A stretch of 64,000 nt of DNA, taken from an uncultured Bacteroidota bacterium (GTDB lineage: Bacteria; Bacteroidota; Bacteroidia; AKYH767-A; JABDAW01). Below the pieces are notes generated by a model. The model was not told the DNA's origin. It did no database searches and worked only from the letters and a program-made list of their open reading frames with translations. The first letter of the stretch is position 1. Each line of letters starts with the position of its first letter. The position numbers and the translations under genes were made by a program. Location: contig CAIMUP010000006.1 in NCBI GenBank assembly GCA_903844645.1, positions 2,055 through 66,054 on the forward strand, in the 5' to 3' direction. Of the stretch, positions 3,027 through 57,742 are shown in pieces.

Positions 3027-3722
3027 ATGATCAAGATTCTCATCGTAGTTGCTACCGAAGGCGAGGTAAAGTTGATTACAGAACACCTGGAGGTTATCAA
3101 TATCACCAATAAGTTCTTGAAACAATACCGATTCCAACAGGTGGAGATAGATATTCTGATCACTGGCGTGGGGATGGTGGCTACTGCCTATCATTTAGGT
3201 AAGCAATTGGCGCATTCTTTCTATACGATGACCTATAATATAGGCGTTTGCGGCAGCTTTATAAAGGATATTCCGCTCGGGACGGTGCTGCACGTTTCTT
3301 CTGATGCCTTCCCCGAAACAGGAGCAGAGGATGGCGTCGAGTTTCTATCTATTTTCGATATGAAATTAATAGGCAAGGATCAATTCCCATTCAAAAACGG
3401 CGAATTATTCTCCTATCATCCGCCGCAATTGCATGCTTTGAATAAAATAAAACAGGTGCGGGGAATCACAGTGAATACAGTCCACGGAAAGGAGGACAGT
3501 ATCCAACAAATCATTAACCGAAACCATCCCGAAGTAGAGACGATGGAGGGGGCTGCCTTCCTTTATTCATGCCTGATGGAGCAATTGCCGTGTGCACAAA
3601 TCAGAGCCGTGTCGAACTATGTGGAAAGGCGCAATAAAGACAGTTGGAAATTGGAATTAGCCATCGAAAACCTGTGCCACGTATTCATGGACATCCTTTC
3701 TGAAATCGCTTCGAGCAATTAA
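3027..3722 (+). CDS. mqnB: PNP/UDP-phosphorylase-family nucleosidase, likely futalosine hydrolase of the menaquinone pathway
   Basis: The fold resembles MTA/SAH-nucleosidase ('KILIVVATEGE', 'ILITGVGMVATAYHLGK', 'VETMEGAAF'). The 231-aa size and Bacteroidota context fit MqnB. The assignment is by family resemblance only. Confidence 0.5.
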   Translation: MIKILIVVATEGEVKLITEHLEVINITNKFLKQYRFQQVEIDILITGVGMVATAYHLGKQLAHSFYTMTYNIGVCGSFIKDIPLGTVLHVSSDAFPETGAEDGVEFLSIFDMKLIGKDQFPFKNGELFSYHPPQLHALNKIKQVRGITVNTVHGKEDSIQQIINRNHPEVETMEGAAFLYSCLMEQLPCAQIRAVSNYVERRNKDSWKLELAIENLCHVFMDILSEIASSN

Positions 3723-3762
3723 ATACTTTTATTCGCGATAGCTTTTATCGTATTCATCGTCG

Positions 3763-4367
3763 TATTGTTGCACCGCAAGGGCGGATGCAATCATACCACG
3801 ATGAAATTAGTATTAAGGATGGAATAAAACATGATGATGGCGAAGTTTTTCATCAAAAAGGGCAAACAAGGTATCAGAATCCCGACCAAAGCGATGCTTC
3901 TGAAAGGTTTTTCAATGGAGATGGCACCCATTACTATGGTATAAAAAATCAAAACCATAGTTATTGTTACTAAAAGGTATCTTATTGTTACTAAAAGGTA
4001 TCTTTTTGTTACTAAAACGTAAGTTATTGTTGCTATAAGGTAAGTTATTGTTGTTATAAGGTAAGTTATTGTTGCTATAAGGTAAGTTATTGTTGCTATA
4101 AGGTAAGTTATTGTTGCTATAAGGTAAGTTATTGTTGTTATAAGGTAAGTTATTGTTACTAAAAGGTATCTTATTGTTACTAAAAGATACGTTTGAGTTT
4201 TTTTGGCATATGTTTAAGCTACTATTTGTATCCCAATCACTTCAGCCACCATCGAAAAACCTTCCAGAAGCATTGCCTCGGTCGTGATTGTTAATCCTTG
4301 TTTGCCCTGTTTGATACTTTTTTCATCATCTTATTATGATTGCATCCGCTTTGGCGGTGCAACAATA
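3763..4367. mobile_element. MITE-like non-autonomous element. It has ~33-bp terminal inverted repeats enclosing a 21-bp tandem array.
   Basis: The left TIR 'tattgttgcaccgcaagggcggatgcaatcata' is at 3763-3795. The right end at 4335-4367 is 'tatgattgcatccgctttggcggtgcaacaata', whose reverse complement matches the left TIR except for the central 5 nt. The element exactly fills the gap between two convergent genes. Confidence 0.4.
3959..4192. repeat. tandem array of ~11 copies with a 21-bp unit ('aaggtaagttattgttgctat' and variants)
   Basis: Direct reading of the sequence shows a 21-nt periodicity. Copies diverge at 1-3 positions. Confidence 0.9.
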
Positions 4368-4399
4368 ATAGGATGATGGGTATTCTTATGAATAAGGTA

Positions 4400-5302
4400 T
4401 TAAGGCTGCTTCCGAACCTTCTCTAAAGGGGCACTGACGAGGTAAACGCCTGCGAAAATGAGCATAGATGCCGCGATTTGTACCATCGTAATGCGCTCAT
4501 GGTTCATCGAAAGCGAGAAAATGGTGGCGATAATCGGTTGGAGGTAGATATAAATGCTGACTATCTCGGGGCTGACTTCTTTGAGTGCTATAATATTGAA
4601 TAAATAGGCGATGAAGGTGCTGCCCACGACTACGAAGGCTACGCCGAGCCATATATTCGGGGTGAATGTGCTCCATTGTACGTCCATTAATTCGTCATAA
4701 CCGAAAAAAAGAACTACCGGCAGCCCGAAAATGAATACCCATTTGATAACTGTTAAGGGATGATATTTCAGCATCAATGGTTTGACCAACACAAGATAAA
4801 CGGCATAGAAAAAAGAGTTTAGAAAGATCCAAACATCGCCTGCGATGGCGTGCTTTCCGTCATCAGCATGCTTGGAAAATAAGATAAGAATCACGGCTCC
4901 TGATGCTCCGGCAAGGATACCGCCTACTTTCCACTTCGTAATGCGTTCTTTGATCAGCAAAGCAGCTACGAGTAATACAATCATGGGGTTGGTGGTGATG
5001 ATCAGGGATGCGTTGATGGCTCCTGTTAAGTTTAATCCTTTGAAAAATAATAACTGGTTCACGGCAATGCCTATCACTCCGCAGAAAATCAACATCGGGA
5101 AGTCTTTCCTATCTATTTTCTCGGTCTTAAAGAATGGGCTGATGAGGAAAAACAAGGTCGTCGCGCCCAACACGCGTAGTAATATGAAGCCCATCGGATG
5201 AATATAATCCTTCATCAACGATTTGGCGATGGTATAGTTCGCCCCGTAGATAAAATTGACGATGAGCAGGAAGATATGTGCTCGGAATTTTTTATTCATC
5301 AA
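4400..5302 (-). CDS. EamA/DMT-family transporter (10 TM)
   Basis: The 300-aa polytopic protein has duplicated EamA halves and starts 'MMNKKFRAHIFLLIVNFIYGANYTIAKSLM'. Confidence 0.8.
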   Translation of the reverse strand: MMNKKFRAHIFLLIVNFIYGANYTIAKSLMKDYIHPMGFILLRVLGATTLFFLISPFFKTEKIDRKDFPMLIFCGVIGIAVNQLLFFKGLNLTGAINASLIITTNPMIVLLVAALLIKERITKWKVGGILAGASGAVILILFSKHADDGKHAIAGDVWIFLNSFFYAVYLVLVKPLMLKYHPLTVIKWVFIFGLPVVLFFGYDELMDVQWSTFTPNIWLGVAFVVVGSTFIAYLFNIIALKEVSPEIVSIYIYLQPIIATIFSLSMNHERITMVQIAASMLIFAGVYLVSAPLEKVRKQP

Positions 5303-5834: not shown

Positions 5835-7076
5835 TTAAAGAACTCCTTCGTCGTAGGCACTCTCGCCATGTAATGCTTCGTCCAAGCCTTTATCTTCTTC
5901 ATGATCGGCTACTCTTACAGGCGTAATTTTATTAATCACCGCCAGCATAATATAAGTAAAGATAAAGGCATAAACGGCTGCTCCGGCAGTGGCAGCTACT
6001 TGTTTGATGAAGAAGTTGGTGCCGCCATGAATCAAGCCGTCTGCGCCGTCAGGGTTAATGCCTTTGGCAGCGAATATCCCCAGACAAATCGTTCCGAGAA
6101 CGCCGCCTACGCCGTGCACTCCCCAAACATCGAGCGCATCATCCCATCCTCTGCGGTTCTTGAAATCAACCGCGATATAACATACAATTCCCGATGCGAT
6201 GCCTATTAAAGCAGCATACGGTAAAGAGATATATCCGGCAGCAGGTGTAACAGTGGCAAGCCCTGCTACGGCACCTGTCAGTAAGCCTACAAACTTTGGT
6301 TTCTTCTGTAAACTCCATTCTATTATCAACCAAGTAATCGCTGCGAAGGATGCGGCTACATCGGTGTTTAAAAACGCTAATCCGGTAATGGCATTCACAT
6401 TCAAGGCACTGCCTGCATTAAAGCCATACCAGCCAAACCAAAGCAAGCCGGTACCTAATGCAATCAGCGGAATGGAGTTTGGTTTATGGACAGGGTTTCT
6501 TCGTTTGCCGACATAGATAACGGAGGCAAGGGCAGCGAATCCGGCAGTGGCATGAACAACAATTCCACCAGCAAAATCGAGTACACCATGAGCCGCCAAT
6601 ATCCCTCCACCCCAGATCATGTGGACGAATGGATAGTAAACCAAAAGTTGCCACAGCATCAGGAAAATCAGATAACCTTTGAAGGTTACGCGGTTCATGA
6701 AGGCTCCTGTAATAAGGGCTGGCGTGATGATGGCGAACATCATCTGATAAGCCATAAAAACAAATTCAGGCAGCTTGGCATTACCTGAATAGGGAGTGTT
6801 CAAAGTAACACCGTTCATAAAGACTTTGTTGCAGTTACCGATGATGCCAAAGAGCCAATCGGAATGCGTTGCTACATCGCCACTGAAGCAAAGCGAGTAG
6901 CCGCAGATGAACCACATAATGGTCGTGATTCCCATGGAAACAAAGCTCTGCATCATGATGCCGAGAATGTTTTGTTTGCCGGCAAGACCTCCGTAAAAGA
7001 AGGCGAGTCCGGGTGTCATTAACATGACAAGGCTTGTTGCTAAGAGCATAAAGCCGGTAATACCTGTGTCGAACAT
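5835..7076 (-). CDS. amt: ammonium transporter
   Basis: The Amt/MEP signature is clear ('LLATSLVMLMTPGLAFFYGG', 'DFAGGIVVHATAGFAALA'). The protein is 413 aa with 11 TM. Confidence 0.9.
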   Translation of the reverse strand: MFDTGITGFMLLATSLVMLMTPGLAFFYGGLAGKQNILGIMMQSFVSMGITTIMWFICGYSLCFSGDVATHSDWLFGIIGNCNKVFMNGVTLNTPYSGNAKLPEFVFMAYQMMFAIITPALITGAFMNRVTFKGYLIFLMLWQLLVYYPFVHMIWGGGILAAHGVLDFAGGIVVHATAGFAALASVIYVGKRRNPVHKPNSIPLIALGTGLLWFGWYGFNAGSALNVNAITGLAFLNTDVAASFAAITWLIIEWSLQKKPKFVGLLTGAVAGLATVTPAAGYISLPYAALIGIASGIVCYIAVDFKNRRGWDDALDVWGVHGVGGVLGTICLGIFAAKGINPDGADGLIHGGTNFFIKQVAATAGAAVYAFIFTYIMLAVINKITPVRVADHEEDKGLDEALHGESAYDEGVL

Positions 7077-8418: not shown

Positions 8419-8670
8419 CCATCCGCGCGGATGGAACCCATCTGGAGCATCCGACATCTCCCAGCCACGCGGATGGAACCCATCTGGAGGAAGGAATGCC
8501 TCCCAGCCGTGCGGATGGAAGCCATCTGAAGGAAGGAATGCCTCCCAGCCACGCGGATGGAAGCCATCTAAAGGAAGGAATGCCTCCCAGCCCTGTGGAT
8601 GGAAGTTGTCGGAAGGAAGGAATACCTTCCAGCCACGCGGATGGGAGCTATCGAATGCTCCCTATCGAAT
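8419..8670. repeat. tandem array of ~6 copies with a 42-bp unit ('cccagccacgcggatggaagccatctgaaggaaggaatgcct')
   Basis: It was read directly and lies between the porin start and the nuoL stop. ORF-track entries 8291..8722 and 8376..8672 are stop-free artefacts of this array. Confidence 0.9.
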
Positions 8671-10571: not shown

Positions 10572-10898
10572 TTAATTCTCTAAATTTAATGGAATTTCAA
10601 TACCTGTTTTCTTTATTGTTTCAGTAAATGGATCACCATCCTCAAAGTAGGTAGCGTTGTAGGTATGCGGCTCGATTTCGTAAAATCGAGTACAAGCTCT
10701 TGATATTTTGTGAATATCGGCAAGTGAGCCACCATTAAAATCATCTGATACCAAAGCTAAATCAATATCACTCCACTGATTTGCTTGATTTCTTGCATAA
10801 GAACCAAACAAGATTACCTTCTTAAAAGTAACGCCCAAATCATTACATGCTTTGATGTAATCCTTTATATATTGCATTAGAGTTTCTTGCGTAAACAT
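10572..10898 (-). CDS. minimal nucleotidyltransferase (MNT, NTP_transf_2 family; MntA-like)
   Basis: Pol-beta-like motifs 'LFGSYARNQANQWSDIDLALVSDD' (GS...DxD) are present. The protein is 108 aa. Its stop lies 2 bp from the nuoL start. Confidence 0.75.
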   Translation of the reverse strand: MFTQETLMQYIKDYIKACNDLGVTFKKVILFGSYARNQANQWSDIDLALVSDDFNGGSLADIHKISRACTRFYEIEPHTYNATYFEDGDPFTETIKKTGIEIPLNLEN

Positions 10899-11144: not shown

Positions 11145-12104
11145 TTAATTTTTAATTTTATTTATTTCCCAAACAAGGTCATTAACCCCTGTCCAAACAC
11201 TACTTTCAAGACTTGAAATTGAATCCATAACTCCTATAATATTATTACTTAAATCCCCCATAGCATTGAGCAAATCCTTTTCAAATTTGCTATTAAAAAT
11301 CCCGAGTTTTTCAAATTCATTGTAGATAGTATAAAATAAGATTAACTCATTTCCTATTAAAGCATTTATCATTTTTATTGATATTTCATGGAGCGATTTT
11401 AGGTATTGATTTTGCTTTTCAAAGTTGTCTAATATCATTGAAACATTGTTATCAATATTTATCTCTCTCAACATAATTCTCTGCTTTTCCATTGAATTTT
11501 GTTTTGCTTTCAAATACTCATTTAATTTTACAAAAGGTAGTATATATTCTTTGTCAATTTGTTTTTGATTCTGTAAAAGTATTTCATTAAAACTTCTGAT
11601 TTCAGGTATCGTATTCGCTGTTAGGAATGTACTGACTTGTAATTGCAATTGATCTTCTTTTTCTTTGATTTCTACTAATTCTTTTTTTTCTAAAATGGAT
11701 TCCATTAATTCAAGATTTACTAAATACGATTCCATCATTTCTTCCAATAATACAAATTCATCTGAAGATACAATTCCGTAATGTGTACCATTATACAGGA
11801 ATGAATATTGAATTGAAAAAAGTTTGTTATATTTATGAAATGTTATAGTACTAAATGATTGAAACGGAATACAAATTGGATAATCTACATTTGGCCAACC
11901 AACAAAATATTTATTAGAAATCTGCCATCCAGATTTCTTAAACGAAAAAATATAATTGCCTAATTTGTTTATCCAGCCTTCTCTGTATATTTCAAACTGT
12001 TTCTTTAAATAGACTTCATTATTTTCAAAAAATTTATTAAAGAAAACCTCATTGAATTCATTAATGCTTTTTAGCTTTTCAAAATCAGATTCTTCAAAAT
12101 CCAT
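11145..12104 (-). CDS. hypothetical 319-aa cytoplasmic protein with an aromatic-rich N-domain and an alpha-helical/coiled-coil C-domain
   Basis: The ORF is long and AT-rich, with no TM segment and no signal peptide. No family was recognised. It is the first gene of a tightly packed three-gene unit. Confidence 0.6.
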   Translation of the reverse strand: MDFEESDFEKLKSINEFNEVFFNKFFENNEVYLKKQFEIYREGWINKLGNYIFSFKKSGWQISNKYFVGWPNVDYPICIPFQSFSTITFHKYNKLFSIQYSFLYNGTHYGIVSSDEFVLLEEMMESYLVNLELMESILEKKELVEIKEKEDQLQLQVSTFLTANTIPEIRSFNEILLQNQKQIDKEYILPFVKLNEYLKAKQNSMEKQRIMLREINIDNNVSMILDNFEKQNQYLKSLHEISIKMINALIGNELILFYTIYNEFEKLGIFNSKFEKDLLNAMGDLSNNIIGVMDSISSLESSVWTGVNDLVWEINKIKN

Positions 12105-12181: not shown

Positions 12182-12575
12182 AAAACACCGTCGCTGGACT
12201 TCCTCCAACGGGCGTTGGAATCATCCCAACGGGCGTTGAAACCGTTCCAATGCCTTTTGGAGCCTCCCAATGAGTCTTGAAACCATTCTAACGTCCGTTG
12301 AAACCATTCCAACGGGCGTTGGAACCGTTCCAACGCCTTTTGTGCCTCTCCAACGGGCGTTGAAACCATTCCAACGGGCGTTGGAGGAAGTCCAACGACG
12401 GTCAAAAACCCTTCAAATCGCATATTCGCACCGCCGAATCCAATATTCTTACCGTCGAATCGCATTCTCACACCGCCGAATCCAATATTCGCACCGTCAA
12501 ATCGCATTCTCGCACCGCCGAATCCAATATTCACACCGTTGAATCGCATTTCTTTATGCCCGAATCCAATATTAT
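12182..12575. repeat. two consecutive 21/42-bp tandem arrays
   Basis: The first unit is 'ccaacgggcgttgaaaccatt', flanked by inverted repeats at 12187-12210 and 12379-12402. The second unit is 'cgcattctcgcaccgccgaatccaatattcgcaccgtcaaat'. ORF-track entries 12118..12585 and 12270..12542 are artefacts of these arrays. Confidence 0.9.
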
Positions 12576-12578
12576 CCA

Positions 12579-12911
12579 TTACCACTTCAATTTATTCAAA
12601 AGATTAATGTCAATAGACTTGATATTCCGGAATATCATCACGATTATCGCTAATCCTACCGCTACTTCTGCTGCCGCTACTACCATGATGAAGAATACAA
12701 AGACCTGTCCTGCGGCATCTGAACGGTAGGTCGAGAAGGCTGTAAGGAGAAGCGTTGCGGCATTCAGCATCAATTCAATGGACATAAAAATAATGATGGC
12801 ATTCCGTCTGATTAATACCCCAAGAACTCCGATAGAAAAAAGTATCGCACTCAAATAAATATAGTGCTCTATCGGGATGGTTTTGGCGATATGTGTAATC
12901 TGGTCTGTCAT
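12579..12911 (-). CDS. nuoK: NADH-quinone oxidoreductase subunit K
   Basis: The 110-aa 3-TM protein ends in '[15 protein letters not shown]...[14 protein letters not shown]'. Confidence 0.9.
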
Positions 12912-13995: not shown

Positions 13996-14235
13996 CTTAT
14001 TTTTTATTTTGAAGCCGCAAATCTAATAAAATCTCTTTAAAAGAAAGATGATATAAATCAGAAAGTCCTCCGTACCGATAGATCGGTTTTACCGAAGGCC
14101 TTTTCATTATTCCCAACATTTCGGGCATTAAATGAAAATAAATCGCGTTTTCAACGGGGAATTGGGAAAAATAAATTTTCATGCCCCCGACTGAAATTTT
14201 TTTATTGGCTATAAAAGAGTCATCATTTTTAAAAA

Positions 14236-14322
14236 AAACATGTTGTCGGCATCAGAAAACATGTTTTCGGCATCGGAAAACATGTTGTCGGCATCGGAAA
14301 ACATGTTGTCGGCATCGAAAGA
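14236..14322. repeat. tandem array of ~4 copies with a 21-bp unit ('aaaacatgttgtcggcatcgg')
   Basis: It was read directly. ORF 14209..14691 (which encodes a 'DADNMFS' heptad repeat) is an artefact of this array. Confidence 0.85.
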
Positions 14323-14412
14323 CACCTGTTTCACTCCTTTATATATAGGCAGCTTTTTGGGGATGCCGGAAACGATTTGGAAAATGTAGCGGAAATGGGG
14401 TATATTTGCGGG

Positions 14413-18910: not shown

Positions 18911-18941
18911 AAAGTTCCTTAAATGTTGGTTAAATTATTTT

Positions 18942-19026
18942 GAAAACGGGTTGTCCTTTTCAGAAAACGGGTTGCCGTTTTTTGAAAACGGGTTGCCGTT
19001 TTTGGAAAACGGGTTGCCGTTTTTAA
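18942..19026. repeat. tandem array of ~4 copies with a 21-bp unit ('gaaaacgggttgccgtttttt'), each unit a 7-bp-stem hairpin
   Basis: It was read directly. It lies 30 bp upstream of the start codon at 18910. Confidence 0.85.
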
Positions 19027-22103: not shown

Positions 22104-22355
22104 ATCCCCTGAAACATGTTTGAAGGGCTTTGAAACATGTTTGAAGGGCTTTGAAACTATTCTTGAGGGCTTCAAGAATAGTATGTGGAGAGCAAATACT
22201 ATTATGTGGAGAGGAAATACTATTATGGGGAGAGGAAATACTATTATGTGGAGAGCAAATACTATTATGGGGAGAGCAAATACTATTATGTGGAGAGGAA
22301 ATACTATTATGTGGAGAGGAAATAATAGTATGTGGAGAGGAAATACTATTCTTGC
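22104..22355. repeat. two abutting 21-bp tandem arrays joined by a palindrome ('catgtttgaagggctttgaaa' x3, then 'tatgtggagaggaaatactat' x9)
   Basis: It was read directly. The junction 'ctattcttgagggcttcaagaatag' is palindromic. ORFs 22099..22392 and 22151..22399 are artefacts of these arrays. Confidence 0.9.
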
Positions 22356-26603: not shown

Positions 26604-26770
26604 TGAGATTTCCTGAGTGAAACCCCATATTTCCTGAGTGAAACCCCATATTTCCTGAGTGAAACCTGAGATTTCCTGAGTGAAACCCGAGATTTCCTGA
26701 GTCAAAACCGAGATTTCCTGAGTCGAAAATCGTCTTTTATCAAAGCAAAAAGGGTTTCGACTCAGGAAAT
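26604..26770. repeat. tandem array of ~6 copies with a 21-bp unit ('atttcctgagtgaaaccccat') and a terminal inverted copy
   Basis: It was read directly. The cap pair is 'tttcctgagtcgaaa' at 26714-26728 and 'tttcgactcaggaaa' at 26755-26769. ORF 26454..26807 is an artefact of this array. Confidence 0.9.
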
Positions 26771-26922
26771 TGGGAATCCGAATCAGCATTTTTTTGATCT
26801 CGTTCATGAAATTTTTGAAGGCTCTTTTGGTAATTTTTAATGATGATACCGTTTCAAGATTTTATTTACAGATAATTCGCGGCGTATTATATATCTTTGC
26901 CGCCGAATTAAATAATTGAGAT

Positions 26923-28725: not shown

Positions 28726-28924
28726 AAAAGTCATTATTAATTGAAATTGGCAGCAACCAACTACCGGTTGGCAGCGCAGGAACTTCTAATTTTTGGTTTC
28801 GAGGAATCGGTACTAGGGGTGGAATTTTTTTATTGTCAGGATATTTTTTACTTTTGCCCCCGTAGATAAATCGGGGATGCCGAAAACCGAATAGAGTAAG
28901 CGCAAAAAATTAAAGAATAATACA

Positions 28925-31900
28925 ATGAATAAAATGAAACAAGCAACCATGAACCTAAGAACAGTCGGGAAAAGCGTTCTTCAGATGTTACTTATTATCG
29001 GCTTCACGCTGGGGATTAATACCATGGCGAATGCGATGAAATTAAGCAGCAGCATTGCCGCGACCATGTCCGCAATGAGAACACCCTGCCCTCCGCCAGA
29101 TCAGCCGGATGTGATCACCGGGAATGTTGTAATCTGTCCTCCCGGATCGCCGCAAACGTACTCTATTCCAGTCGTTACCGGAGCGACGGATTATACCTGG
29201 ACCTTGCCTTCGGGATGGACCGGAACTTCCACAATAACGACCATTGATGCTACCGCAGGAACGGTTGGCGGAACCATTACCGTTACCGCGAATAACGCTT
29301 GCGGAAGCAGTATTCCGCGAACCTTGGATGTGGTAGTGAATACGGAATTATTTCCGGTAATCACCGCGATGGGTCCTACTTCTTTTTGCTTTGGTGGTTC
29401 CGTCATCTTGGATGCAGGGGCAGGCTACGCTTCCTATACCTGGAATACAGCTGGGACGGATGAAACCATCACGGCAACTGCCAGCGGCACCAGCTCTGTT
29501 ACCGTTACCGATAATTATGGATGCCTTGGCGTGGCTACGCAAGATATTTTTGCGAATGCATTGCCGACACCGCATATACTTACCTTCGCCGATTCGACAT
29601 TTTGTTTAGGCGATTCTGTTCAATTGGAATCAGGGAATTTTAATTTGAATGCACTCGTTCCTTATACCAATTGGAGTTGGAGTTCGGGAGAAATCACAGA
29701 GGTTGTTACCGAGCATGCACAAGGAATTTATACCGTTACCGTTACCGATATGAATGGCTGCACGGGAAGCAAATCGGTACATGTTACGGTAAATCCACAT
29801 CCTACTCCGACGATTACCTCGGCAAGTCCTTTTACCTCTTGTTTAGGCGGTTCCATTGTTTTGGATGCAGGAGTTTTTCCGCAATATCATTGGAGCACTT
29901 CTAACATCGGAGAAACCATTACTGTATCAGCTACAAATACCTATTCGGTAACCGTAACGAATAGTAATGGATGTACCGGAACGGCTTCGGTGAATGTGAA
30001 TTTATTAGCAGGACCAGCACCTACGATTACTGGGATTTTATCTTTCTGCTCCAATACCCCAGGCACCACGTTGGATGCAGGAACTTATACTTTATACTCC
30101 TGGAGTAATGGCGGAACAGACGAGACAACAACGGCTACCACTGCGGGAACATATACCGTTACTGTAACAGATAATGTGGGCTGTACAGGAACGAATTCCG
30201 TAACCGTAACGATGAATACATCGCCTACACCAAGTATCACCCCAAGTGGTGCTACCAGTTTCTGTGCTGGAGGATCAGTATCCTTAGATGCGGGGATTTT
30301 TGCCTCCTATCTTTGGAGCAGTACCGCCACAGGAGAAGCAATAACAGCTACCGCAAATGGAACTTACATTGTTACCGTTACCGATATGAATGGATGTACC
30401 GGTTCGGCATCTCAAATGGTTATTGTCAGTCCAGCTATTAATGCTGTTATCACTGCAAGTGGGGCTACCACTTTTTGTGCGGGAGGCTCTGTAACATTAG
30501 ATGCAGGGACTTATACATCATACTCTTGGAGTAATACTGCCACCGATCAAACAATCATGGTTGCTGCTTCGGGAATTTATTCGGTAACGGTTACTGATAA
30601 TATCGGATGTACAGGAATAGCTTCGCAGATTGTTACCGCAAATACCAATCCTACACCGACCATTACTCCGAGTGGTTCTACCACTTTTTGTAGCAATACC
30701 TCAATTACTTTAGATGCCGGAGTTTACTCTTCTTATTTATGGAGCAATGCGGCAACAGATGAAATAGTAACTGCCTCGTCCAGTGCAATGTGGACAGTAA
30801 CGGTTACCGATGCGAATGGATGTACCGGAACAACTTCTGTTACCACCACATTCAATGCAGCACCATCACCAGTAATTACTCCAAGCGGACCGACCACATT
30901 TTGTAGTGGAGGATCAGTAACATTGGATGCTGGAGTTTATTTATCTTATATCTGGAGTAATACCGAAACTAATGAAATGACAACAGTAAATACAAGTAGT
31001 AATTTTATGGTTACTGTTACCGCCGCCAACGGATGTACCGGAGCGACTTCGCAAATGGTTACAGCTAACCAAAATCTCAATGTAAATATATCCGCAAGCG
31101 GTCCAACTTCATTTTGTGCCGGGGGGACGGTTATCTTAAGTCCTGGATTTTATTTGAGTTATCTTTGGAGTGATGCAAGTACCGATGCAACATTAATGGT
31201 TAATACCGCAGGGACTTATTCTGTAACTGTTACCGATGGGAATGGATGTACAGGTGTAGCTTCACAAGGAGTCATTATTAATTCAAATCCAACACCAACA
31301 ATTACCCCAAGCGGTTCAACAACATTCTGTAGTAATAACTCTATAATGTTAGATGCAGGGGTTTATGCTTCGTTCATCTGGAATACTTCCGAAACTAATG
31401 AAACAATTACCGCATCAACAGCTAATACATTCAGTGTTACCATTACTGATAATAATGGATGTACCGGAATAGCTTCTATCATAACAACGGTGAATATTGC
31501 CCCTTCTATTTCAATCGCAGCGAGTGGTTCAACAACCTTCTGTAATGGAGGTTCGGTAACTTTAGATGCAGGATCAGGTTTTACTATTTATACTTGGAAC
31601 AATACAGGGACTGATCAAACAACAATTGTAATGACTGGAGGAAATTATATTATAACTGTTACAGATGCAAACGGATGTACCGGAGCAGCAAGCCTCATGG
31701 TTACTGTTAATGCAAGTCCTACCCCTTTGATTACACCGAGTATTTCTGCCAATATCTGTGCAGGCACTTCTGAAACATTGGATGCTGGGGTTTATGCAAC
31801 ATACCTTTGGAGTACAACTGGAACAGATGAGATGATTTCAGTTAATGCATCAGGGAATAACAGTGTAACTGTTACTGATATGAATGGATGTACAGGATCT

Positions 31901-34900
31901 GCTTCATTGATAATTACGGTAAATACAAACCCAACTCCTTCAATAACTCCAAGTGGATTTACAACATTTTGTGATGGAGGTTCTATAACCTTGGATGCAG
32001 GAGTTTATGTTTCCTACATTTGGAGCAATACAAGCACCAATCAAATGACTACAGTAATGACAAGCAGTAATTACATAGTAACTGTTACAGACATTAATGG
32101 CTGCACTGGAATTGCTTCTCAAATGGTTGCCGTTAATTCTAATCCTATTACTATAATAACCGCTTCTAGTTCCACTACTTTCTGCATTGGGGGCTCTGTA
32201 ACTTTAGATGCCGGTGTATTTGCATCTTACATGTGGAGCAATGCTGGAACAGATGAAACAACAATAGTAACAACGGGTGGCATCTATTCTCTAACAATAA
32301 CTGATATGAATGGTTGCACTGGAATAGCTTCACAAACAGTTACAGTAAATCAATTACCATTACCAACCATTACCTCAAGCAACTCAACTACGTTCTGTGC
32401 CAACGGTTCAATCATATTGGATGCTGGAATGTATTCGACTTATCTGTGGAGTAACACAGAAACGGATGAAACTATTATTGTTAATTTATCGGGTACTTTT
32501 TTAGTAACTGTAGCTGATGGAAATGGTTGTACAGGTATAGCTTCAATAACAACAACAGTTAATGCAAATCCAACTCCTTCCATAACACAAAATGGAGCTA
32601 TTCTTAATACAGGTATTTATTCTTCCTACTTATGGAGTACCGGAGCCACTACAGACTCTATTAATGTCTTGGTAAATGGTACTTATACCGTTACTGTTAC
32701 TGATGCGAACGGATGTACTGGTTTAGCTTCAATGGTAGTTTCGAGTACGGCTTGTGCAGATGTTGGTGCTGGTGCAGCTTATATAACAAATCAGCTTGAC
32801 AATACCGTATCAGTTATTAATATTGCAACAAACACTGTTACAGCTACAATCCCTGTTGGTAATCATCCTGTTGGAGTATCAGTTAGTCCAGATGGAACTA
32901 AGGCATATATTGCGAATGAATTTGGTCCTTCAATAAGTGTAATAAATACTGCTACAAATACTGTTTCGGCTACAATTAGTGTTAGTGGTGCTCCTTATGG
33001 TATAGTAGTAAGCCCAGATGGAAGTAAAGTATATGTTGCAAATGTCAGTGCCAATTCAGTAAATGTAATAAATACGGTTTCAAACATTGTTTCTACTACA
33101 ATTCCAGTTGGTCTTTCTCCTGAAGGAATAGCGGTGAGCCCTGATGGGACAAATGTATATGTTGCGAATCAAAGTGATAATGCAGTAAGCGTAATAACTG
33201 CTGCAACAAATACAGTATCAGTTACAGTACCAGTTGGTGCTGATCCTTTTGGTTTAGTTGTCAGCCCTGATGGAAGTAAGGTATATGTTACTAATGAAAC
33301 CGGAGGTACAGTAAGTGTAATAACCACTGCTACGAATACTGTTTCAGCTACAATTAATGTTGGTATTGCTCCGCAGGGTATATCCATGAGTCCTGATGGG
33401 AGTAAGGCGTACGTTGTGAATGGAAATTCTAATTCAGTAAGTGTAATAAATACAGTTACCAATACTGTTTCAGCTACGATTCCGGTTGGTAGCGACCCTT
33501 GGGGTATATCTGTAAACTCAGATGGAAACATGGTATATGTCGTAAATGATAACTTTACTGGTACGGTAAGTGTAATAGACACTTTAACCAATACTGTTAC
33601 AGCAACAATTACTGTTGGTTCTGGTCCTGCTGGGTTTGGTAATTTCATTTCTGCTTCCACATCCCTTACCCCTGTTATCACTGCTAATGGTAATACAACT
33701 TTCTGTCAAGGTGGTTCTGTTACTTTAGACGCAGGAAGTTATACTTTTTACCTTTGGAGTAATGGTGCAACAACAGAAACAATCACAGCCATTGACAGTT
33801 CCAATTATTCTGTAACTGTTACTAATGTAAATGGTTGTACGGGAGTTGCCTTGCAATTGGTTACTGTTCATGCAAACCCAATTCCATCAATAGCTGCCAA
33901 TGGACCGACAAGTTTCTGTAATGGAGGTTCTGTTACTTTGGATGCAGGAAACTATACATCATACAATTGGGATGATGGGGACTTTACAGAAACAACAATT
34001 ATAATGAATAATGGATTATCATCTGTTACAGTAACAGATGGAAATGGGTGTACTGGAGTTAGTTCTCAAATGGTAACAGTAAATCCTAGTCCCACTCCAA
34101 CTATAAGTCACTCCACTCCAACAACATTCTGTAGTGGAGATTCTGTAGTGTTAGATGCTAATGTTTACCTTTCTTACATATGGAGTACTTACGCTACAAC
34201 AAGAAAGGTTACTGCTACAACAGGTGGCACTTTTTCAGTTACCGTTACTGATGTTGACGGATGCACAGGGGTTACTTCAATAAATGTAATTGTACATAAT
34301 AACCCTAATCCAATAATTACAAATACGGGGAGTCTTACTTTTTGTGACGGTGGATCAGTAATATTAGATGCTGGTATTTCTTATACCTCATACTTATGGA
34401 ACACTGGGGAAACCGATCAAATGGAAACTGAATTCTCTGGAGGTACTTATTTCGTTATTGTTACTAATGGTAATAACTGTACGGGTAGTGCATCAATAGA
34501 TGTTGTAAATAATCCATTACCTAATCCAGTCATAACACCCAATGGTCCGGTGAACTTCTGCGTAGGAGGTTCTGTTACTCTTGATGCAGGTATTTTTAAC
34601 TCTTATATTTGGAGTACTACTGAAACAACCCAATCAATTGCAACAACAAATAGCGGAACATATGATGTTACGGTAACTGATATTAATGGTTGTACAGCCA
34701 CTGCTTCACAGGTAGTAGTAGTTTCATTAAATATTACATTCAGCATTACACCAACTGGTCCGACTACCTTCTGTAGTGGTGGTTCTGTAACTCTTGATGC
34801 AGGTGTTTACAATTCCTATAATTGGAGTACATCTGAAACAACAGAAACAATTTCCGTTTCAACTTCAGGAACATATACTGTAACTATTACTGGCAATAAT

Positions 34901-37900
34901 GGCTGCTCGGGTACATCTTCAATAACAACAGTGGCTAATCCTTTACCAACACCTTTAATTACAGCAAGTGGTCCGATTAGTTTTTGTGCGGGAGGCTCTG
35001 TAACATTAGATGCGGGAATATACACTAACTATATTTGGAGTACTACAGCAACAACCCAGACAATTAATTCTAATAATAATGGGAATTATTCGGTGACAGT
35101 TACTGACGCAAATGGTTGCACCGGAAGTACATCTCAAACTATTTCAGTTTATGCTAATCCTATTCCTTCAATAATCTCAAATAATCCGACCACATTCTGT
35201 ATCGGAAGTTCAACGACCTTGGATGCTGGATCTTTTTCTTCTTATGTATGGAGTTCTTCTGAAACTTCTGAAACAGTAACTGTATCTACTGCTGGAACTT
35301 TCATGGTTACTGTTACCGATTCTCATGGCTGCACAGGATCAGCTTCCCAATCTATAATTGTAAACACATTACCAACTCCAATAATAACGGCGATTGGTCC
35401 GACTAGTTTTTGCAATGGTGGTTCAGTTAATTTGGATGCCGGTACTTTTGTTTTTTATAATTGGAGTTCTGCTGCTACTACTGAAATTATTACTGCCGCT
35501 ACCAATGGAGTCTTTGGTGTTACTGTTACGGACAACAACGGATGCACTGGAATCACATCGCAAGCTGTAACAGTCTATAGTAACCCTAATCCTACAATTA
35601 CACCTAATGGTCCTACGAGTTTCTGTGATGGAGGAATGGTTGATTTGAATGCAGGTTCTTTTGTTTCGTTTGCTTGGAATACCGGTGAAACAGATCAAAT
35701 CGTTACCGAGTATTCTAATGGTACTTATCTGGTAACTGTTACTGATAGTCATGGATGTACGGGAGAAGGTTCAATACTTGTAACTGTTTATTCGCTTCCG
35801 AGTCCGACAATTACTCCAAGTGGACCAACAGTATTTTGTAATGGAGGTTCTGTTACGCTTAATCCAGGAAGCTATGCGAGTTATTTATGGAGTACTGGTG
35901 CTACAACTGCTTCTATTTCTGCTACTATAGCAGGCACTTATTCTGTAACCATTACAGACAATCATGGTTGTACAGGATCTGCTTCACAAACGGTTACCGT
36001 TAATCCATTACCGATAGCATCTATTACTCCAAACGGACCAACTTCATTCTGTCAGGGTGGATCTGTAGTATTGGATGCCGGAAATGCGCTTACCTATCAT
36101 TGGAATACAGCAGCGACAACCGAATCTATCACAGTTACCGTTAATGGTGTATATTATGTAACCATATCGAATGGTTTCAATTGCACTTCCGTTACTTCGC
36201 AAGTGGTTACTGTAACGACCAATCCTATTCCTGTAATATTTGCTAATGGTCCCGTAACATTCTGTGCCGGAGATACGGTAAGTTTAGATGCCGGTGTATG
36301 GTCTTCTTACCTTTGGAGTACAGGAGCAACTACTGAAACGATAACTGAAACGATTTCCGGGACATATACTGTAACCGTTACCAATATCGGGGGGTGTACG
36401 GGTTCTACATCGAGCATTGTTACTGTAAATACAAATCCTACTGCTGCTATTACTCCAAGTAGTACTACTACATTCTGTCAGGGTGGTTCTGTATTCTTAA
36501 ATGTGGGTGCTTATGCTTCATTCATTTGGAATACGGGGGCTACCACGGGAATAATTTTGGCAACAAACAACGGTACTTATTCAGTAACGGTTACTGATGT
36601 GAATGGATGTACTGCTATCGCTTCAATCAATGTTACTGTGAATGCAAACTCTACTCCTGTGATTACGCCAAGCGGTCCTATTTCCTTTTGTGCGGGTGGT
36701 TCGGTGAATCTTGATGCTGGTTCTTATGCTTCTTACCTTTGGAATACGGGGTCAACGATTCAAACGCTTTCAAACATTAATTCGGGCGGCACATATATGG
36801 TTACTGTTACGAATGGAAACGGTTGTACAGGGACAGCATCCATACTTATTACCGTAACGGTGATTCCTACTCCGAACATTATTGTTAATGGTCCGCTGAC
36901 ATTCTGTAGTGGTACCGATTCTGTTCAATTTGATGCCGGAAACTTTGCCTCTTATTCCTGGAGTACGGGTGCTACTACCCGAAGAATTGTTGTATTCACC
37001 AGCGGAACGTACATTGTTACGGTAACGAATGCCGGTGGATGTACAGGATCATCAAATCGGGTGGTAACGGTGAATCCTACCCCGAATCCTACCATCGTTC
37101 CGAACGGATCGGTTACCTTTTGTATCGGAGGTTCCGTCAATCTGGATGCAGGAGTCTATCCTACTTATCATTGGAGCACAGGTGCGACGACAGAAACCAT
37201 TAATAATATCAATACATCCGGTACTTACATGGTAACAGTAACCTCGGCTGCCGGATGTTCTGCCACGGCATCACAAGTAGTTACCGTTAATGCTTTACCG
37301 ACACCGATTATCACGGCGAATGGACCGATCATGTTCTGCATCGGGGGAAGCGTAACGCTTAATGCGGGAGTAGGATATACTAACTACATTTGGAGCACCG
37401 GAGCGACGACCAATACCATTAATGTATCGGCAGCAGGAACGTATCATGTAACGGTTACGAACAACAATGGCTGTACTGGGTTTACATCGCAAACAATTAC
37501 CGTCAATCCGCTTCCTAATCCAACGATTACGGCTAACGGTCCCCTGACATTCTGTAGTGGCGGCAACATCATCTTAGATGCCGGCAATTGGTCCACTTAT
37601 CTTTGGAATACAACGGCTACAACGGAGACCATTACGGCTTCTTCTTCAGGAACATACAGTGTTACCATTACGAATAACAACGGTTGTTCAGCCTCCACGG
37701 CTCAAACGGTTACCGTCAATCCTCTTCCGACCGTTACCGATACTTCTACCCTCTCAAATGTATGTATTCAGTGGGCTATCTTCAATCTTAACGGCGGCAT
37801 TCCGGCAGGCGGAACGTATTCAGGAATAGGAGTGGTTTTAAATCAGTTCAATCCGAACCTTGCGGGGCTTGGAACGAGAACGATTACCTATATTTATACC

Positions 37901-38227
37901 GATGGAAACGGTTGTACGAACTCGGCGACGCACAATCTGATCGTGAATCCTTGTACCGACGTGCCAACGATTACCGATGCCGATTTCGTAACGCTATTCC
38001 CGAATCCTAACGACGGTAATTTCACCGTTAAGTATTCTGTTTCGACTGCCGTTACGGCAATCCGAGTAGTGGATATTACCGGAAGGATCGTCCTTATCCA
38101 CACCTTATCCGGCATTGAGGGAAGCCAGGAAATCAATGCCTCCGACCTTGCGAAAGGAGTGTATTATTACGAAGTGATGACCACCGATGCCATCCTTGCG
38201 AAAGGCAAAATGGTGATCGTAAAATAA
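28925..38227 (+). CDS. giant 3100-aa T9SS-secreted adhesin-like protein. It has ~35 tandem ~80-aa Ig-like (HYR/SprB-like) repeats, an embedded YVTN-type beta-propeller, a distinct penultimate domain and a T9SS type-A sorting domain.
   Basis: A signal peptide is present. Repeats follow the pattern '[24 protein letters not shown]...ITA...GTY.VTVTD.NGCTG..S'. The propeller region at 32750-33650 carries '...[25 protein letters not shown]...SPDGSKVYV' about 8 times. The C-terminus is '[15 protein letters not shown]...[11 protein letters not shown]...KMVIVK'. Confidence 0.85.
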
Positions 38228-38255: not shown

Positions 38256-38288
38256 AGAGCCGCTACCATCGTAGCGGCTCTTTTTTTG
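38256..38288 (+). terminator. rho-independent terminator of the giant adhesin gene
   Basis: 'agagccgcta ccatcg tagcggctct ttttttt' gives a 10-bp perfect stem, a 6-nt loop and a T7 run. Confidence 0.75.
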
Positions 38289-38319
38289 TTGGTTCTTTTT
38301 TACCTTCCCGTTTTTCTTT

Positions 38320-38900
38320 GGAGATGATGGGTGAAATCAGGTTTGATACCCGATATTTTCCTGAAATCATTCGTTTTTTTCCTGAAATCACTCCTATTTT
38401 CGGGAATTTGAGGCGTGATTTTGGGAATTTGATGCATCATTCCAAAACCGTTACTCGTCTATTACACGCATTATCAAGTCATTTTCACGAAACAGGTCGT
38501 CATAAAAAGTAAACACATCGTCTTTTCGATGAAACTTATCGTAGTTTCGATGAAACTGGGTGCAGTTTCAATGCAACTGGGTGCAGTTACGATTAAACTG
38601 GGTGCAGTTTCAATCAAACTGGGTGCAGTTTCATTGCAACTGGGTGCAGTTGCATTGAAACTGCACCCAGTTTCATCGAAACTACGATAAGTTTCATCGA
38701 AAAGACGACAAGATGCATTTAAAAGACGATAAGATGCATCGGAATGACGAATAAAAAACTTGGAATGACGAATCATTTAAGAGGAATGACGAGTCTTTTT
38801 CTTGGAATGATTCGTAGTTTTCTTGGAATGATGTGTCTTTTCTTTGGAATGATTCGTATTTGATTTGGAATGACGAATAGATGGATCAGAATGACTTATA
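38320..38900. repeat. compound region of at least three different 21-bp tandem arrays, with an orientation flip through a perfect palindrome
   Basis: The unit families are 'cctgaaatcattcgttttttt', 'tcgatgaaactgggtgcagtt' and 'cttggaatgacgaatcattta'. The perfect inverted repeat 'aactgggtgcagtt/gcattgaa/aactgcacccagtt' lies at 38638-38673. ORFs 38318..38512 and 38474..38776 are artefacts of these arrays. Confidence 0.9.
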
Positions 38901-43699: not shown

Positions 43700-43835
43700 C
43701 GTTCTCTTGGTGTCCCCCGCGATGGCGGTGGTGCCCAAAAAAGTGGCGGTGGCGTTCCCCGCGATGGCGGCGGTGTCCAAAAAAGTGGCGGTGGCGTCCA
43801 CCGCCACTTTTTTGGACGCCACCGCCAAGGTATTT
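43700..43835. repeat. 42-bp tandem array ('ccccgcgatggcggtggtgcccaaaaaagtggcggtggcgtt') ending in a 16-bp-stem palindrome
   Basis: It was read directly. The palindrome 'aaaaaagtggcggtgg cgt ccaccgccactttttt' lies at 43779-43813. It sits in the divergent promoter region between the 1525-aa gene and the 43889 gene. ORFs 43616..43828, 43666..44016 and 43686..43880 are artefacts of this array. Confidence 0.9.
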
Positions 43836-45828: not shown

Positions 45829-45965
45829 ATCTTACGCTAATTGCCTGCTCACTTACGCTAATTGCCTGTTCACTTACGCTAATTCTGACCTCACTTACGC
45901 TAATTGCCTGCTCACTTACGCAAACTATCAGCCCACTTACGCAAATGCTGACCTCGGTTACGCTT
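45829..45965. repeat. tandem array of ~6 copies with a 21-bp unit ('cacttacgctaattgcctgct')
   Basis: It was read directly. Confidence 0.9.
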
Positions 45966-48035: not shown

Positions 48036-48168
48036 CGCTTACCTGCCCATGCCGCTGTCTCACTTGCCCGTACCGCTGTCTCACTTGCCCGTGCCGCTGT
48101 CTCACTTGCCCGTTCCGCTGTCTCACTTGCCCGTGCCGCTGTCTCACTTGCCCGTGCCGTTGTCTCAC
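48036..48168. repeat. tandem array of ~6 copies with a 21-bp unit ('cttgcccgtgccgctgtctca')
   Basis: It was read directly. ORFs 47914..48183 (which encodes an 'LPVPLSH' heptad repeat) and 48022..48225 are artefacts of this array. Confidence 0.9.
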
Positions 48169-50233: not shown

Positions 50234-50254
50234 AGGCATACCTTTTAATGTAAA

Positions 50255-50291
50255 CAAAAAAGCGGCACACTATGTACCGCTTTTTTGTTTT
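50255..50291. terminator. bidirectional rho-independent terminator between convergent genes
   Basis: 'aaaaaa gcggcac acta gtaccgc tttttt gtttt' forms a stem with one mismatch. An A-run lies 5' and a T-run lies 3', so it can serve both strands. Confidence 0.55.
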
Positions 50292-57266: not shown

Positions 57267-57332
57267 TCGTTTTATTATTTAATTTTCGTTAATTGTATTA
57301 TAAATCAGTGTATTGTTGCATGAGAAAGCATA

Positions 57333-57656: not shown

Positions 57657-57742
57657 CTAGTAGAGTAGAGTATAGTAGAGTAGAGTATAGTATAGTAGAG
57701 TAGAGTAGAGTAGAGTAGAGTAGAGTAGAGTAGAGTAGAGTT
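57657..57742. repeat. simple hexanucleotide repeat (tagagt)n of about 14 copies
   Basis: It was read directly. ORF 57657..57896 is an artefact of this repeat. Confidence 0.9.

What the first reader, a model, noticed from the sequence alone, without database searches (positions are those of the whole stretch)
3763..4367. 605-bp MITE-like element with ~33-bp terminal inverted repeats enclosing a 21-bp array, filling a convergent intergenic gap
The left terminus 'tattgttgcaccgcaagggcggatgcaatcata' is at 3763-3795. The right terminus 'tatgattgcatccgctttggcggtgcaacaata' at 4335-4367 is its reverse complement except for the central 5 nt. Each TIR is also internally near-palindromic. The interior holds the array 3959-4192, whose unit 'ttattgttgct...' echoes the TIR core 'tattgttgc'. 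The element sits exactly between the stop of the nucleosidase gene (3722) and the stop of the EamA gene (4400). This is the clearest case in the window where an array looks like cargo of a discrete non-autonomous element.
Basis: seen in the sequence. Interest (0 to 1): 0.65.

Follow-up and report, generated by a model that had tools for sequence, protein, structure and literature searches.

The report
Hairpin-ended repeat module carrying 21-bp array
The "miniature transposon" is real sequence, but it is better read as two copies of a conserved DNA hairpin plus an adjacent block, facing each other across a variable 21-bp repeat array; the same hairpin-block-array module occurs once more elsewhere, there with only one hairpin.

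Summary
3763-3795 and 4335-4367 are inverted copies, identical over 14+14 nt, and they enclose 11 x 21-bp units (3959-4193).

The structure is larger and different from a TIR-bounded MITE:
- Each "TIR" is the invariant core of its own ~53-nt imperfect hairpin (about -28 kcal/mol).
- A second inverted block lies inside the arms (3852-3918 / 4249-4315, 84%).
- A second locus, L018, comes from the same samples and has the same GC. It carries one hairpin 100% identical to the left one, the same block, and a homologous 14-unit array in the opposite orientation. It has no second hairpin.
- The hairpin recurs in two other metagenomic genomes, once beside an unrelated 21-bp array and once alone. The 33-nt core is invariant, the loops vary and the outer stem covaries.
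- I found no target-site duplication, no transposase in 64 kb and no match in Rfam, plasmids or phages.
- The array varies in length between assemblies (7 versus 11 or more units).
- Twelve other intergenic gaps in the window hold unrelated 21-bp arrays without this hairpin.

Best reading: a low-copy, dispersed, modular extragenic repeat (hairpin + block + variable array), here as a head-to-head pair. How it moves is inferred, not shown. The MITE reading is partly supported. Interest is moderate.

The parts
3027..3722 (+). Left flanking gene, futalosine hydrolase (mqnB, PNP_UDP_1). Its stop is 30 nt before the left hairpin.
   Evidence: source names: futalosine hydrolase.
3753..3805 (+). Left hairpin, top strand on +.
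   Evidence: I4; -28.5 kcal/mol, z -5.1; covariation; model R1: 88 bits on +, 41.6 on -.
3806..3958 (+). Left block. It is homologous to L018 along its whole length. It contains a 37-aa ORF (3831-3944, +) and a 55-aa ORF on the other strand (3791-3958, -). The sub-block 3852-3918 is shared with the right arm.
   Evidence: 85% over 209 nt vs L018; P0123, 36 aa, 67% identity.
3959..4193 (+). Tandem array of 11 x 21 bp. Unit variants run in the order A A A' B B' B B B B' A A. The unit is GTTAT-N7-ATAA(G/C) plus a 4-nt linker. The array is length-polymorphic.
   Evidence: D1; a 7-unit allele in ERZ27313596/7, and a longer allele in ERZ18667900 and the window; the unit is the reverse complement of the L018 unit, 19/21.
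4194..4323 (-). Right block, decayed. Only 4249-4315 (67 nt, 84%) matches the left block and L018. About 35 nt between hairpin and block are deleted, and the small reading frame is broken.
   Evidence: (I1).
4324..4378 (-). Right hairpin, top strand on -. Loop is CAAAG, and the outer stem differs from the left hairpin through compensating changes.
   Evidence: I3; -28.1 kcal/mol, z -8.6; (84.3 bits on -, 49.6 on +).
4400..5302 (-). Right flanking gene, an EamA-family transporter. Its stop is 21 nt before the base of the right hairpin.

Best explanation
The 605-bp structure is a head-to-head pair of arms from a low-copy, dispersed, modular extragenic repeat. It is not a classical TIR-bounded MITE.

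The module has a polarity:
1. a ~55-nt imperfect hairpin with a 33-nt invariant core;
2. a ~110-150-nt non-coding block;
3. a length-variable array of 21-bp units.

In the window, two hairpin+block arms flank a single array. Each arm starts 21-30 nt after the stop codon of one of the two convergent genes, with the hairpin's top strand in the sense of that gene. This is why the hairpins look like terminal inverted repeats.

Shown:
- The module recurs at a second locus with one arm only.
- The hairpin alone is conserved across at least three genomes, with a covarying outer stem.
- The array changes copy number between assemblies.

Inferred:
- The hairpin is the unit that matters, and it acts in folded single-stranded form.
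- Most likely it is the cis-site of a hairpin-recognising DNA enzyme, following REP/RAYT or IS200/IS605 logic. Such an enzyme would copy or move the hairpin and sometimes the DNA 3' of it, including block and array.
- The array itself grows and shrinks by slippage, like the other 21-bp arrays of this genome.

I put about 0.5 on the structural reading (dispersed hairpin-block-array module, window locus an inverted pair). I put only about 0.25 on the specific mobilisation mechanism.
For: **Second locus, L018**
- The hairpin at 5922-5976 is identical to the left hairpin, loop included. The block with a 36-aa ORF lies at 6001-6111. The 14 x 21-bp array lies at 6127-6423.
- Homology with the window starts 3 nt before the hairpin base and nowhere upstream.
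- The arm is 85% identical to the left arm over 209 nt. The distal side has no match, and there is no second hairpin.
- L018 comes from the same samples as the window species. Its GC is 0.420, as in the window, and tetranucleotide r is 0.90.

**Hairpin family**
- Five copies at four loci: window left, window right, L018, L019=L022 and L024.
- The 33-nt core is invariant, including the mismatch, the wobble and the bulge.
- Three different loops are seen.
- Three outer-stem pairs change on both sides. 0 of 500 shuffles reached the observed covariation score or the percentage of cells paired.
- The strand is unambiguous: 84-88 bits on the top strand against 42-50 on the other.

**Polarity**
- In all four arms that have an array, the array lies 3' of the hairpin's top strand.
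- In L022 a different array starts directly at the hairpin base.

**Array variation**
- Alleles of 7, 11 or more, and 14 units.

**Low copy number**
- No other copy in the 64-kb window with filters off.
- Only two distinct loci in the JGI metagenome scan.
Against: - No enzyme candidate was seen. None of the window ORFs scanned against Pfam matched a transposase, integrase or HUH family, and the full genome could not be searched.
- Copy number looks far lower than in typical REP/REPIN families.
- No insertion polymorphism or empty site was found. Every contig with the identical flanking genes carries the structure.
- Four of five hairpins lie sense-oriented just behind a gene. This fits an RNA-level role at least as well as a DNA-level one.
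- That L018 belongs to the same genome is inferred, not proven.
- With arrays in about 13 of 42 gaps, the association of hairpin and array in 3 of 4 loci could be chance (about p 0.08 by my estimate).
Confidence: 0.5

Rival explanations
1. It is a classical non-autonomous TIR transposon (MITE), 3754-4376, with a tandem array as cargo. L018 is a truncated or one-ended copy. L022 and L024 are solo ends.
For: - Inverted ends of 51 nt at 82%, with a 28/33 core.
- Small, AT-rich (GC 0.27-0.35) and strongly self-pairing.
- A homologous copy exists at a second, non-homologous convergent gap.
- The array is reversed relative to the homologous arm between the two loci. This would be expected if a two-armed ancestor could flip its centre by recombination between its arms.
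Against: - The only other copy of the module has one end, and its far side is unrelated DNA.
- The best target-site duplication is GTATTC at 3750-3755 / 4380-4385. It is placed asymmetrically to the repeat ends. I estimate p about 0.2 by chance over the boundaries tried. Five of its six left-hand bases are shared with the L018 copy, so they belong to the element.
- The ends fold on themselves and covary, which a duplex transposase site does not require.
- No transposase in the window.
Confidence: 0.15
2. The hairpins are RNA elements of the 3' untranslated regions of the two convergent genes. They would protect against 3' exonucleases or act as U-tract-less terminators or insulators. Block and array are linked spacer DNA that was copied between loci by recombination.
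For: - In the window (both arms) and in L018, the hairpin's top strand is in the sense of the upstream gene and starts 21-30 nt after its stop.
- L024 is also sense-oriented.
- Covariation shows that pairing matters.
- The hairpins are stable as RNA.
Against: - No U-tract follows either hairpin, and the terminator scan did not call them. Canonical hairpin+T-run terminators do exist in this genome, for example at 38256-38290 and 50251-50290.
- In L024 the hairpin lies after a canonical terminator and before the next gene's TAnnTTTG box, so probably outside the mRNA.
- In L022 it is antisense to both neighbours.
- A 33-nt core invariant down to its mismatch and bulge is more than a generic stabiliser needs.
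Confidence: 0.15
3. It is a protein-binding locus of the iteron or centromere type. Eleven phased sites (TTATTGTTGC every 21 bp, two helical turns) would be flanked by two palindromic operators built from the same half-site.
For: - The 9-10-nt half-site is shared between array units and both hairpin arms (sequence).
- The spacing is exactly 21 bp.
- The L022 array keeps an 11-nt motif (AAAATCAGACT) while the other 10 nt of each unit vary. This looks like phased binding sites.
Against: - The L022 hairpin has the same core, but its array motif is unrelated to it. One protein therefore cannot explain both.
- Compensatory changes in the outer stem are not needed for duplex binding.
- No replication or partition gene is nearby.
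- No plasmid or phage similarity.
- Twelve other arrays have other units.
Confidence: 0.1
4. The arms are small protein genes: the 37-aa ORF at 3831-3944, or the hydrophobic 55-aa ORF on the other strand. This would resemble type I toxin-antitoxin loci, with the hairpin as a regulatory structure.
For: - A 36-aa homologue with the same start and stop exists in L018 (67% identity, E 7.6e-06 against 1.84 billion proteins).
- The opposite-strand ORF is also open in both loci, at 55 and 54 aa.
Against: - The right-arm copy has no start codon and is frame-shifted.
- My hand count from the alignment gives 12 non-synonymous against 5 synonymous codon differences. These include K>P, R>E, P>R and three K>E. 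Net charge goes from about +7 to about -1.
- The third codon positions of the two strands coincide, so the mild excess of third-position changes cannot pick a frame.
- No Pfam match.
- No other relatives in 1.84 billion representatives.
Confidence: 0.05
5. It is an invertible segment (inverton). A site-specific recombinase would flip the ~540 bp between the 33-nt inverted repeats.
For: - The size and repeat length are typical of Bacteroidota invertons (my own knowledge).
- The array has opposite orientation relative to the homologous arm in the window and in L018.
Against: - All assemblies that span or enter the region show the same orientation: L001, L002, L017, L025, L026 and L027.
- The only TAnnTTTG box inside the segment, at the array's right edge (4188), has no -33 TTTG partner.
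- The segment lies between two gene ends, where a promoter switch has nothing to drive.
- No recombinase gene in the window.
Confidence: 0.05

Closest known systems
Pneumococcal BOX elements, boxA-(boxB)n-boxC (PMC3049150)
   Same: - A composite intergenic repeat.
- Two end modules that pair with each other enclose a tandem array of an internal module.
- The copy number of the internal module differs between loci and strains.
- Non-coding and strongly folding.
   Different: - No sequence relation.
- BOX has over 100 copies per genome and is streptococcal.
- boxB is 45 nt, not 21.
- Here each end is itself a complete hairpin and can occur singly, with another array, or alone.
- Here the arms are two copies of the same module, not distinct A and C modules.
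REP / REPIN elements with RAYT transposases (RAREFAN preprint 10.1101/2022.05.22.493013, listed; otherwise my own knowledge)
   Same: - Extragenic imperfect palindromes.
- A conserved sequence with structure maintained.
- Often behind gene ends and between convergent genes.
- Can occur singly or as inverted pairs.
   Different: - REPs are usually tens to hundreds per genome. Here there are two in 64 kb, at one locus.
- REPIN pairs lie close together, whereas these are 518 nt apart.
- The GTAG-type 5' motif is absent.
- No RAYT has been identified.
- REPs do not carry a block plus array.
TIR-type bacterial MITEs, such as Correia and Nezha (features as listed in PMC3049150)
   Same: Small, AT-rich, non-coding, with inverted ends, highly base-paired and intergenic.
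   Different: - No target-site duplication.
- The ends are self-complementary.
- The second copy is one-ended.
- No cognate transposase is known.
Iteron arrays of plasmid origins and sopC-type centromeres (my own knowledge)
   Same: - Direct repeats of about 21 bp in phase with the DNA helix.
- Flanking inverted repeats reuse the repeat's half-site.
   Different: - Chromosomal, and present at several loci.
- No rep or par gene.
- No plasmid similarity.
- The same genome has many arrays with unrelated units.

Membership tests
TIR-type MITE | Terminal inverted repeats at both ends of every copy | tested here: not met
   Met in the window. The only other copy of the module, L018, has one hairpin and no second arm. 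L024 is a lone hairpin.
TIR-type MITE | Target-site duplication directly outside the ends | tested here: not met
   No duplication at 3763/4367 or at 3754/4376. The best match over 960 boundary pairs is the 6-mer GTATTC. It is asymmetric, I estimate it is expected by chance at about p 0.2, and it is partly shared with L018.
TIR-type MITE | Multiple dispersed copies with the same boundaries | tested here: inconclusive
   One further locus shares the hairpin-side boundary exactly. No other copy in 64 kb. The genome collection lacks the species.
TIR-type MITE | Cognate transposase whose element has matching ends | not testable with these tools
   None of the window ORFs scanned against Pfam matched a transposase family. 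The rest of the genome is not available.
REP / REPIN | Extragenic imperfect palindrome with conserved sequence and maintained pairing | tested here: met
   Five copies. The 33-nt core is invariant, and three pairs carry compensating double changes. All copies are intergenic.
REP / REPIN | High copy number (tens to hundreds per genome) | tested here: inconclusive
   Two copies at one locus in 64 kb. Two distinct loci in the JGI scan. This points to low copy number, but no complete genome was searched.
REP / REPIN | A RAYT (Y1 HUH) gene flanked by the repeats | not testable with these tools
   No such gene in the window. The genome is unavailable.
BOX-like composite repeat | End modules enclosing a variable number of tandem internal modules | tested here: met
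   The arms enclose 7, 11 or more, or 14 units in different assemblies and loci.
BOX-like composite repeat | Sequence homology to boxA/B/C, and occurrence in streptococci | tested here: not met
   The organism is a gliding Bacteroidota (GldH, SprB, Por_Secre_tail, CHU_C). No Rfam match of any kind. The resemblance is one of organisation only.
Intrinsic terminator | GC-rich hairpin followed by a U-tract | tested here: not met
   No T-run follows either hairpin, and the scan does not call them. Canonical terminators exist elsewhere in the window.
Inverton (invertible promoter) | Both orientations present in the population, with a promoter inside | tested here: not met
   Six assemblies show one orientation. 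The only TAnnTTTG box, at 4188, has no -33 partner.
Iteron-type origin or centromere | Phased direct repeats next to a rep or par gene or on a replicon | tested here: not met
   The phased repeats are present. The neighbours are mqnB and eamA. No plasmid or phage similarity.

The most novel reading that the evidence does not exclude
The conserved hairpin could be a cis-acting start site for building 21-bp arrays. This Bacteroidota lineage fills about a third of its intergenic gaps with arrays that share a strict period of 21 bp or a multiple of it. On this reading a dedicated, still unknown mechanism with a two-helical-turn ruler lays down or amplifies units 3' of a structured site. The window locus would then be two such sites working toward each other.
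Probability: 0.08. Interest if true: 0.85.

Novelty: new variant of a known kind. Interest (0 to 1): 0.45.

Why it matters
- **For annotation.** An apparent MITE can arise when two oriented hairpin elements sit behind convergent genes. Calling it a transposon would misannotate it.
- **A new family.** The hairpin has a 33-nt invariant core, a conserved mismatch and bulge, and a covarying outer stem. It occurs in several genomes at non-homologous sites. It is uncatalogued and small enough for direct tests of what binds or cuts it.
- **Arrays can move.** The array is not purely made in place. A whole array with its flank exists at two loci, so arrays in this lineage can be copied between loci.
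- **The wider puzzle.** This gives a handle on why this lineage carries so many 21-bp arrays.

Tried and rejected
- **Genome collection scan.** I scanned for the hairpin core. There were eight hits, about the number I expected by chance. The two Bacteroidota hits lie in what reads as coding DNA. The window's own locus was not found, so the species is not in that collection.
- **Orthologous empty site.** The closest MqnB relatives (64-70% identity) have other neighbours, or no DNA is held.
- **Paralogues in protein space.** The exact 55-aa ORF occurs only at this locus. A search with it returned only itself.
- **Searches that failed.** The last protein search, with the 119-aa array ORF of L018, returned nothing, not even itself; a search of such a repetitive query is uninformative.
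- **Known collections.** Rfam at gathering and at E<=10 gave nothing relevant. Plasmid, phage and viral-contig collections gave nothing.
- **Structure in the block.** No supported pairs beyond the hairpin.
- **Promoter boxes.** No conserved box in the module.
- **Contig breaks.** I considered whether contig breaks at the left hairpin (L003, L005) marked an inversion junction. The break points (3792, 3780) do not match the expected crossover points, so I dropped this.
- **Other sites.** From memory only, I compared the core with parS, dif and integron attC consensus sequences. None fits.
- **Literature.** Searches for 21-bp intergenic arrays in Bacteroidota found nothing relevant.

Full report
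**1. The observation**

The sequence is as described.
- The pattern TATTGTTGCACCGC-N5-CGGATGCAATCATA matches at 3763-3795 (+) and 4335-4367 (-) and nowhere else in 64 kb. One hundred shuffles gave no match.
- Tandem Repeats Finder reports 3959-4193, period 21, 11.2 copies, 90% matches.
- The structure fills the 677-nt gap between a futalosine hydrolase gene (3027-3722, +) and an EamA transporter gene (4400-5302, -).
- The 9-mer TATTGTTGC occurs 9 times in the window against 0.84 expected. Four are in the array and two in the termini.

**2. The structure is larger than reported**

Each terminus is the core of its own long hairpin: 3753-3805 and 4324-4378 (I3 and I4). As RNA these fold at -28.5 and -28.1 kcal/mol, with z -5.1 and -8.6.

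A second inverted block lies further in: 3852-3918 vs 4249-4315, 67 nt, 84% (I1; alignment). The right arm lacks about 35 nt between hairpin and block.

The gap therefore reads hairpin - block - array - block' - hairpin'.

The array's unit variants run A A A' B B' B B B B' A A. The first and last 39 nt of the array are identical.

**3. Context**

The window is ordinary chromosome of a gliding Bacteroidota. Pfam matches include GldH, SprB repeats, Por_Secre_tail, CHU_C and the nuo genes. None of the ORFs scanned against Pfam matched a transposase, integrase or HUH family.

Thirteen intergenic gaps carry arrays of period 21, or multiples 42, 63 and 84, each with a different unit. Several of these arrays flip orientation internally and form very long perfect hairpins.

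Related genomes, with MqnB about 65% identical, have 21/42-bp arrays of their own. Arrays in this lineage therefore do not need these termini.

**4. Related sequences**

*Same strain.* Contigs from other assemblies (L001, L002, L017, L025) are identical to the window except that the array has 7 units instead of 11. A contig from a third sample, L026, carries the longer allele. The length difference is therefore probably real. All are in the same orientation.

*Second locus.* A search of the left arm's 37-aa ORF against 1.84 billion representatives found one real relative: P0123, 36 aa, 67% identity. It is encoded on L018, a 20-kb contig from the same samples as the window species. L018 has GC 0.420, as does the window. 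It lies in another convergent gap, between an epimerase gene (+) and a polyprenyl synthase gene (-). L018 contains:
- a hairpin at 5922-5976, identical to the window's left hairpin, loop included;
- the block;
- a 14-unit 21-bp array at 6127-6423.

The L018 unit, GTTATAGCAACAATAACTTAT, is the reverse complement of the window unit at 19 of 21 positions. Relative to the homologous arm, the array is therefore reversed. Homology with the window begins 3 nt before the hairpin base. L018 has no second hairpin and no second arm.

*Other genomes.* A scan of JGI metagenomes for the core found two more distinct loci.
- L019=L022 (GC 0.37): the hairpin is followed at once by an unrelated, degenerate 21-bp array of AAAATCAGACT plus 10 variable nt. 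It lies between a DUF3226 gene and hisS, antisense to both.
- L024 (GC 0.35): the hairpin stands alone. It follows a canonical terminator and precedes the next gene's TAnnTTTG box.

**5. The hairpin family**

The five copies were aligned as A4.
- The 33-nt core is invariant, including a U.C mismatch, a G.U wobble and a bulged A.
- Three loops occur: AAGGG three times, CAAAG and CACAA.
- The four pairs outside the core vary. Three of them carry changes on both sides.
- No shuffle out of 500 reached the observed covariation score or the percentage of cells paired.

A covariance model, R1, separates the strands clearly: 84-88 bits against 42-50. It finds no further copy in the window with filters off, nor in the relatives' contigs.

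**6. What this means**

The repeated unit is not TIR-cargo-TIR. It is a polar module of hairpin, then block, then array. The hairpin is its most conserved and most widely distributed part.

In the window, two arms face each other. Each sits 21-30 nt behind the stop of one of the convergent genes, in that gene's sense, which makes them inverted relative to each other.

The transposon model is not supported, for these reasons:
- The second copy is one-ended.
- There is no target-site duplication. The best candidate is GTATTC at 3750-3755 / 4380-4385. It is asymmetric, I estimate it would arise by chance at about p 0.2, and it is partly shared with L018.
- No transposase was found in the window.
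- The ends fold on themselves and covary.

**7. Mechanism**

Compensating changes in the outer stem mean the folded, single-stranded form is under selection. The core is conserved down to its mismatch and bulge, which points to recognition by a specific protein.

The hairpin occurs at non-homologous sites in genomes of different GC content. It has a sharp boundary on the hairpin side and a variable extent on the other side. This fits copying that starts at the hairpin. I therefore favour a REP/RAYT-like or IS200/IS605-like logic that sometimes carries the DNA 3' of the hairpin along. This is inference, at about 0.25.

The array then changes length by slippage; alleles of 7, 11 or more, and 14 units are seen.

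The RNA-element rival fits four of five orientations. It does not fit L022, nor L024, where a canonical terminator already precedes the hairpin.

Coding is unlikely, for these reasons:
- The right-arm copy is frame-broken.
- The two intact copies differ by 12 non-synonymous and 5 synonymous codons with radical charge changes (my count).
- The wobble positions of the two strands coincide.
- There is no Pfam match.

**8. Comparison with known families**

In organisation it is closest to pneumococcal BOX elements, in which end modules enclose a variable tandem array (PMC3049150). The hairpin's behaviour is closest to REP elements. It is a member of neither:
- there is no sequence relation to either family;
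- copy number is apparently low;
- no RAYT is known.

No Rfam family, plasmid or phage matches it.

**9. Verdict**

- The MITE interpretation is partly supported.
- It is a new variant of a known kind: a modular extragenic hairpin/array repeat.
- Interest is moderate.

The more surprising matter is the lineage-wide set of arrays with a period of 21 bp or a multiple of it, of which this is the one case with a recognisable, portable flank.

Noticed in passing
window 8419-8652, 12204-12573, 14235-14324, 18938-19025, 22110-22350, 26605-26728, 38356-38876, 43708-43804, 45831-45964, 48044-48168, 57374-57539, 60651-60833: Twelve further intergenic gaps hold tandem arrays with a period of 21 bp, or 42, 63 or 84 bp. 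Each has a different unit. They occur in convergent, divergent and tandem gaps alike. Relatives' contigs L014, L016, L018 and L022 show the same habit. I found no literature on it.
   Followed up: partly
window 43761-43830, 38606-38675, 26706-26775, 57332-57539: Several arrays end in, or switch to, inverted copies of their own unit. This gives very long near-perfect hairpins, for example -57.9 kcal/mol at 43761-43830 and -45.6 at 38606-38675.
   Followed up: no
window 12204-12573: Two adjacent 21-bp arrays lie inside the nuo gene cluster, between nuoK (12579-12911) and an unannotated 319-aa ORF (11145-12104). A nucleotidyltransferase-domain ORF (10572-10898) sits next to nuoL. The arrays are therefore probably co-transcribed with an operon.
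   Followed up: no
L022 6100-6417 (- strand): This array is half conserved. About 13 units of 21 nt keep AAAATCAGACT while the other 10 nt of each unit differ. It looks like phased sites rather than a young duplication.
   Followed up: no
window 3959-4193 vs L001/L002/L025 and L026: The array has at least two alleles in public assemblies. The 7-unit allele is in ERZ27313596/7. The allele of 11 or more units is in the window and in ERZ18667900. Many short-read contigs break inside the array or at the left hairpin.
   Followed up: yes
window 28870-28902: The only Rfam match above gathering score in the window is DUF805b RNA (RF02914, 37.9 bits). It ends 22 nt upstream of the start (28925) of a 3100-aa ORF at 28925-38227.
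   Followed up: no
window 57659-57741: A pentanucleotide microsatellite, (AGTAG) x 16.6 at 94% matches, lies in the gap after the array at 57374-57539.
   Followed up: no
window 32819-33490: A 126-bp (42-aa) repeat, 5.3 copies, lies inside the 3100-aa ORF. It is the only strong tandem repeat in the window that is clearly coding, and its period is again a multiple of 21.
   Followed up: no
L022 4292-6025: The hairpin-plus-array gap in L022 follows a gene pair: an AAA_15/AAA_21 ATPase and a DUF3226 protein. The pair looks like a defence-type two-gene module.
   Followed up: no
window 3724-3735 and 4388-4399: Directly after both stop codons the two strands read alike: TAA-A-TACTTTTATTC and TAA-TACCTTATTC. 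The inverted symmetry of the gap may therefore reach the gene ends. This could also be chance.
   Followed up: partly
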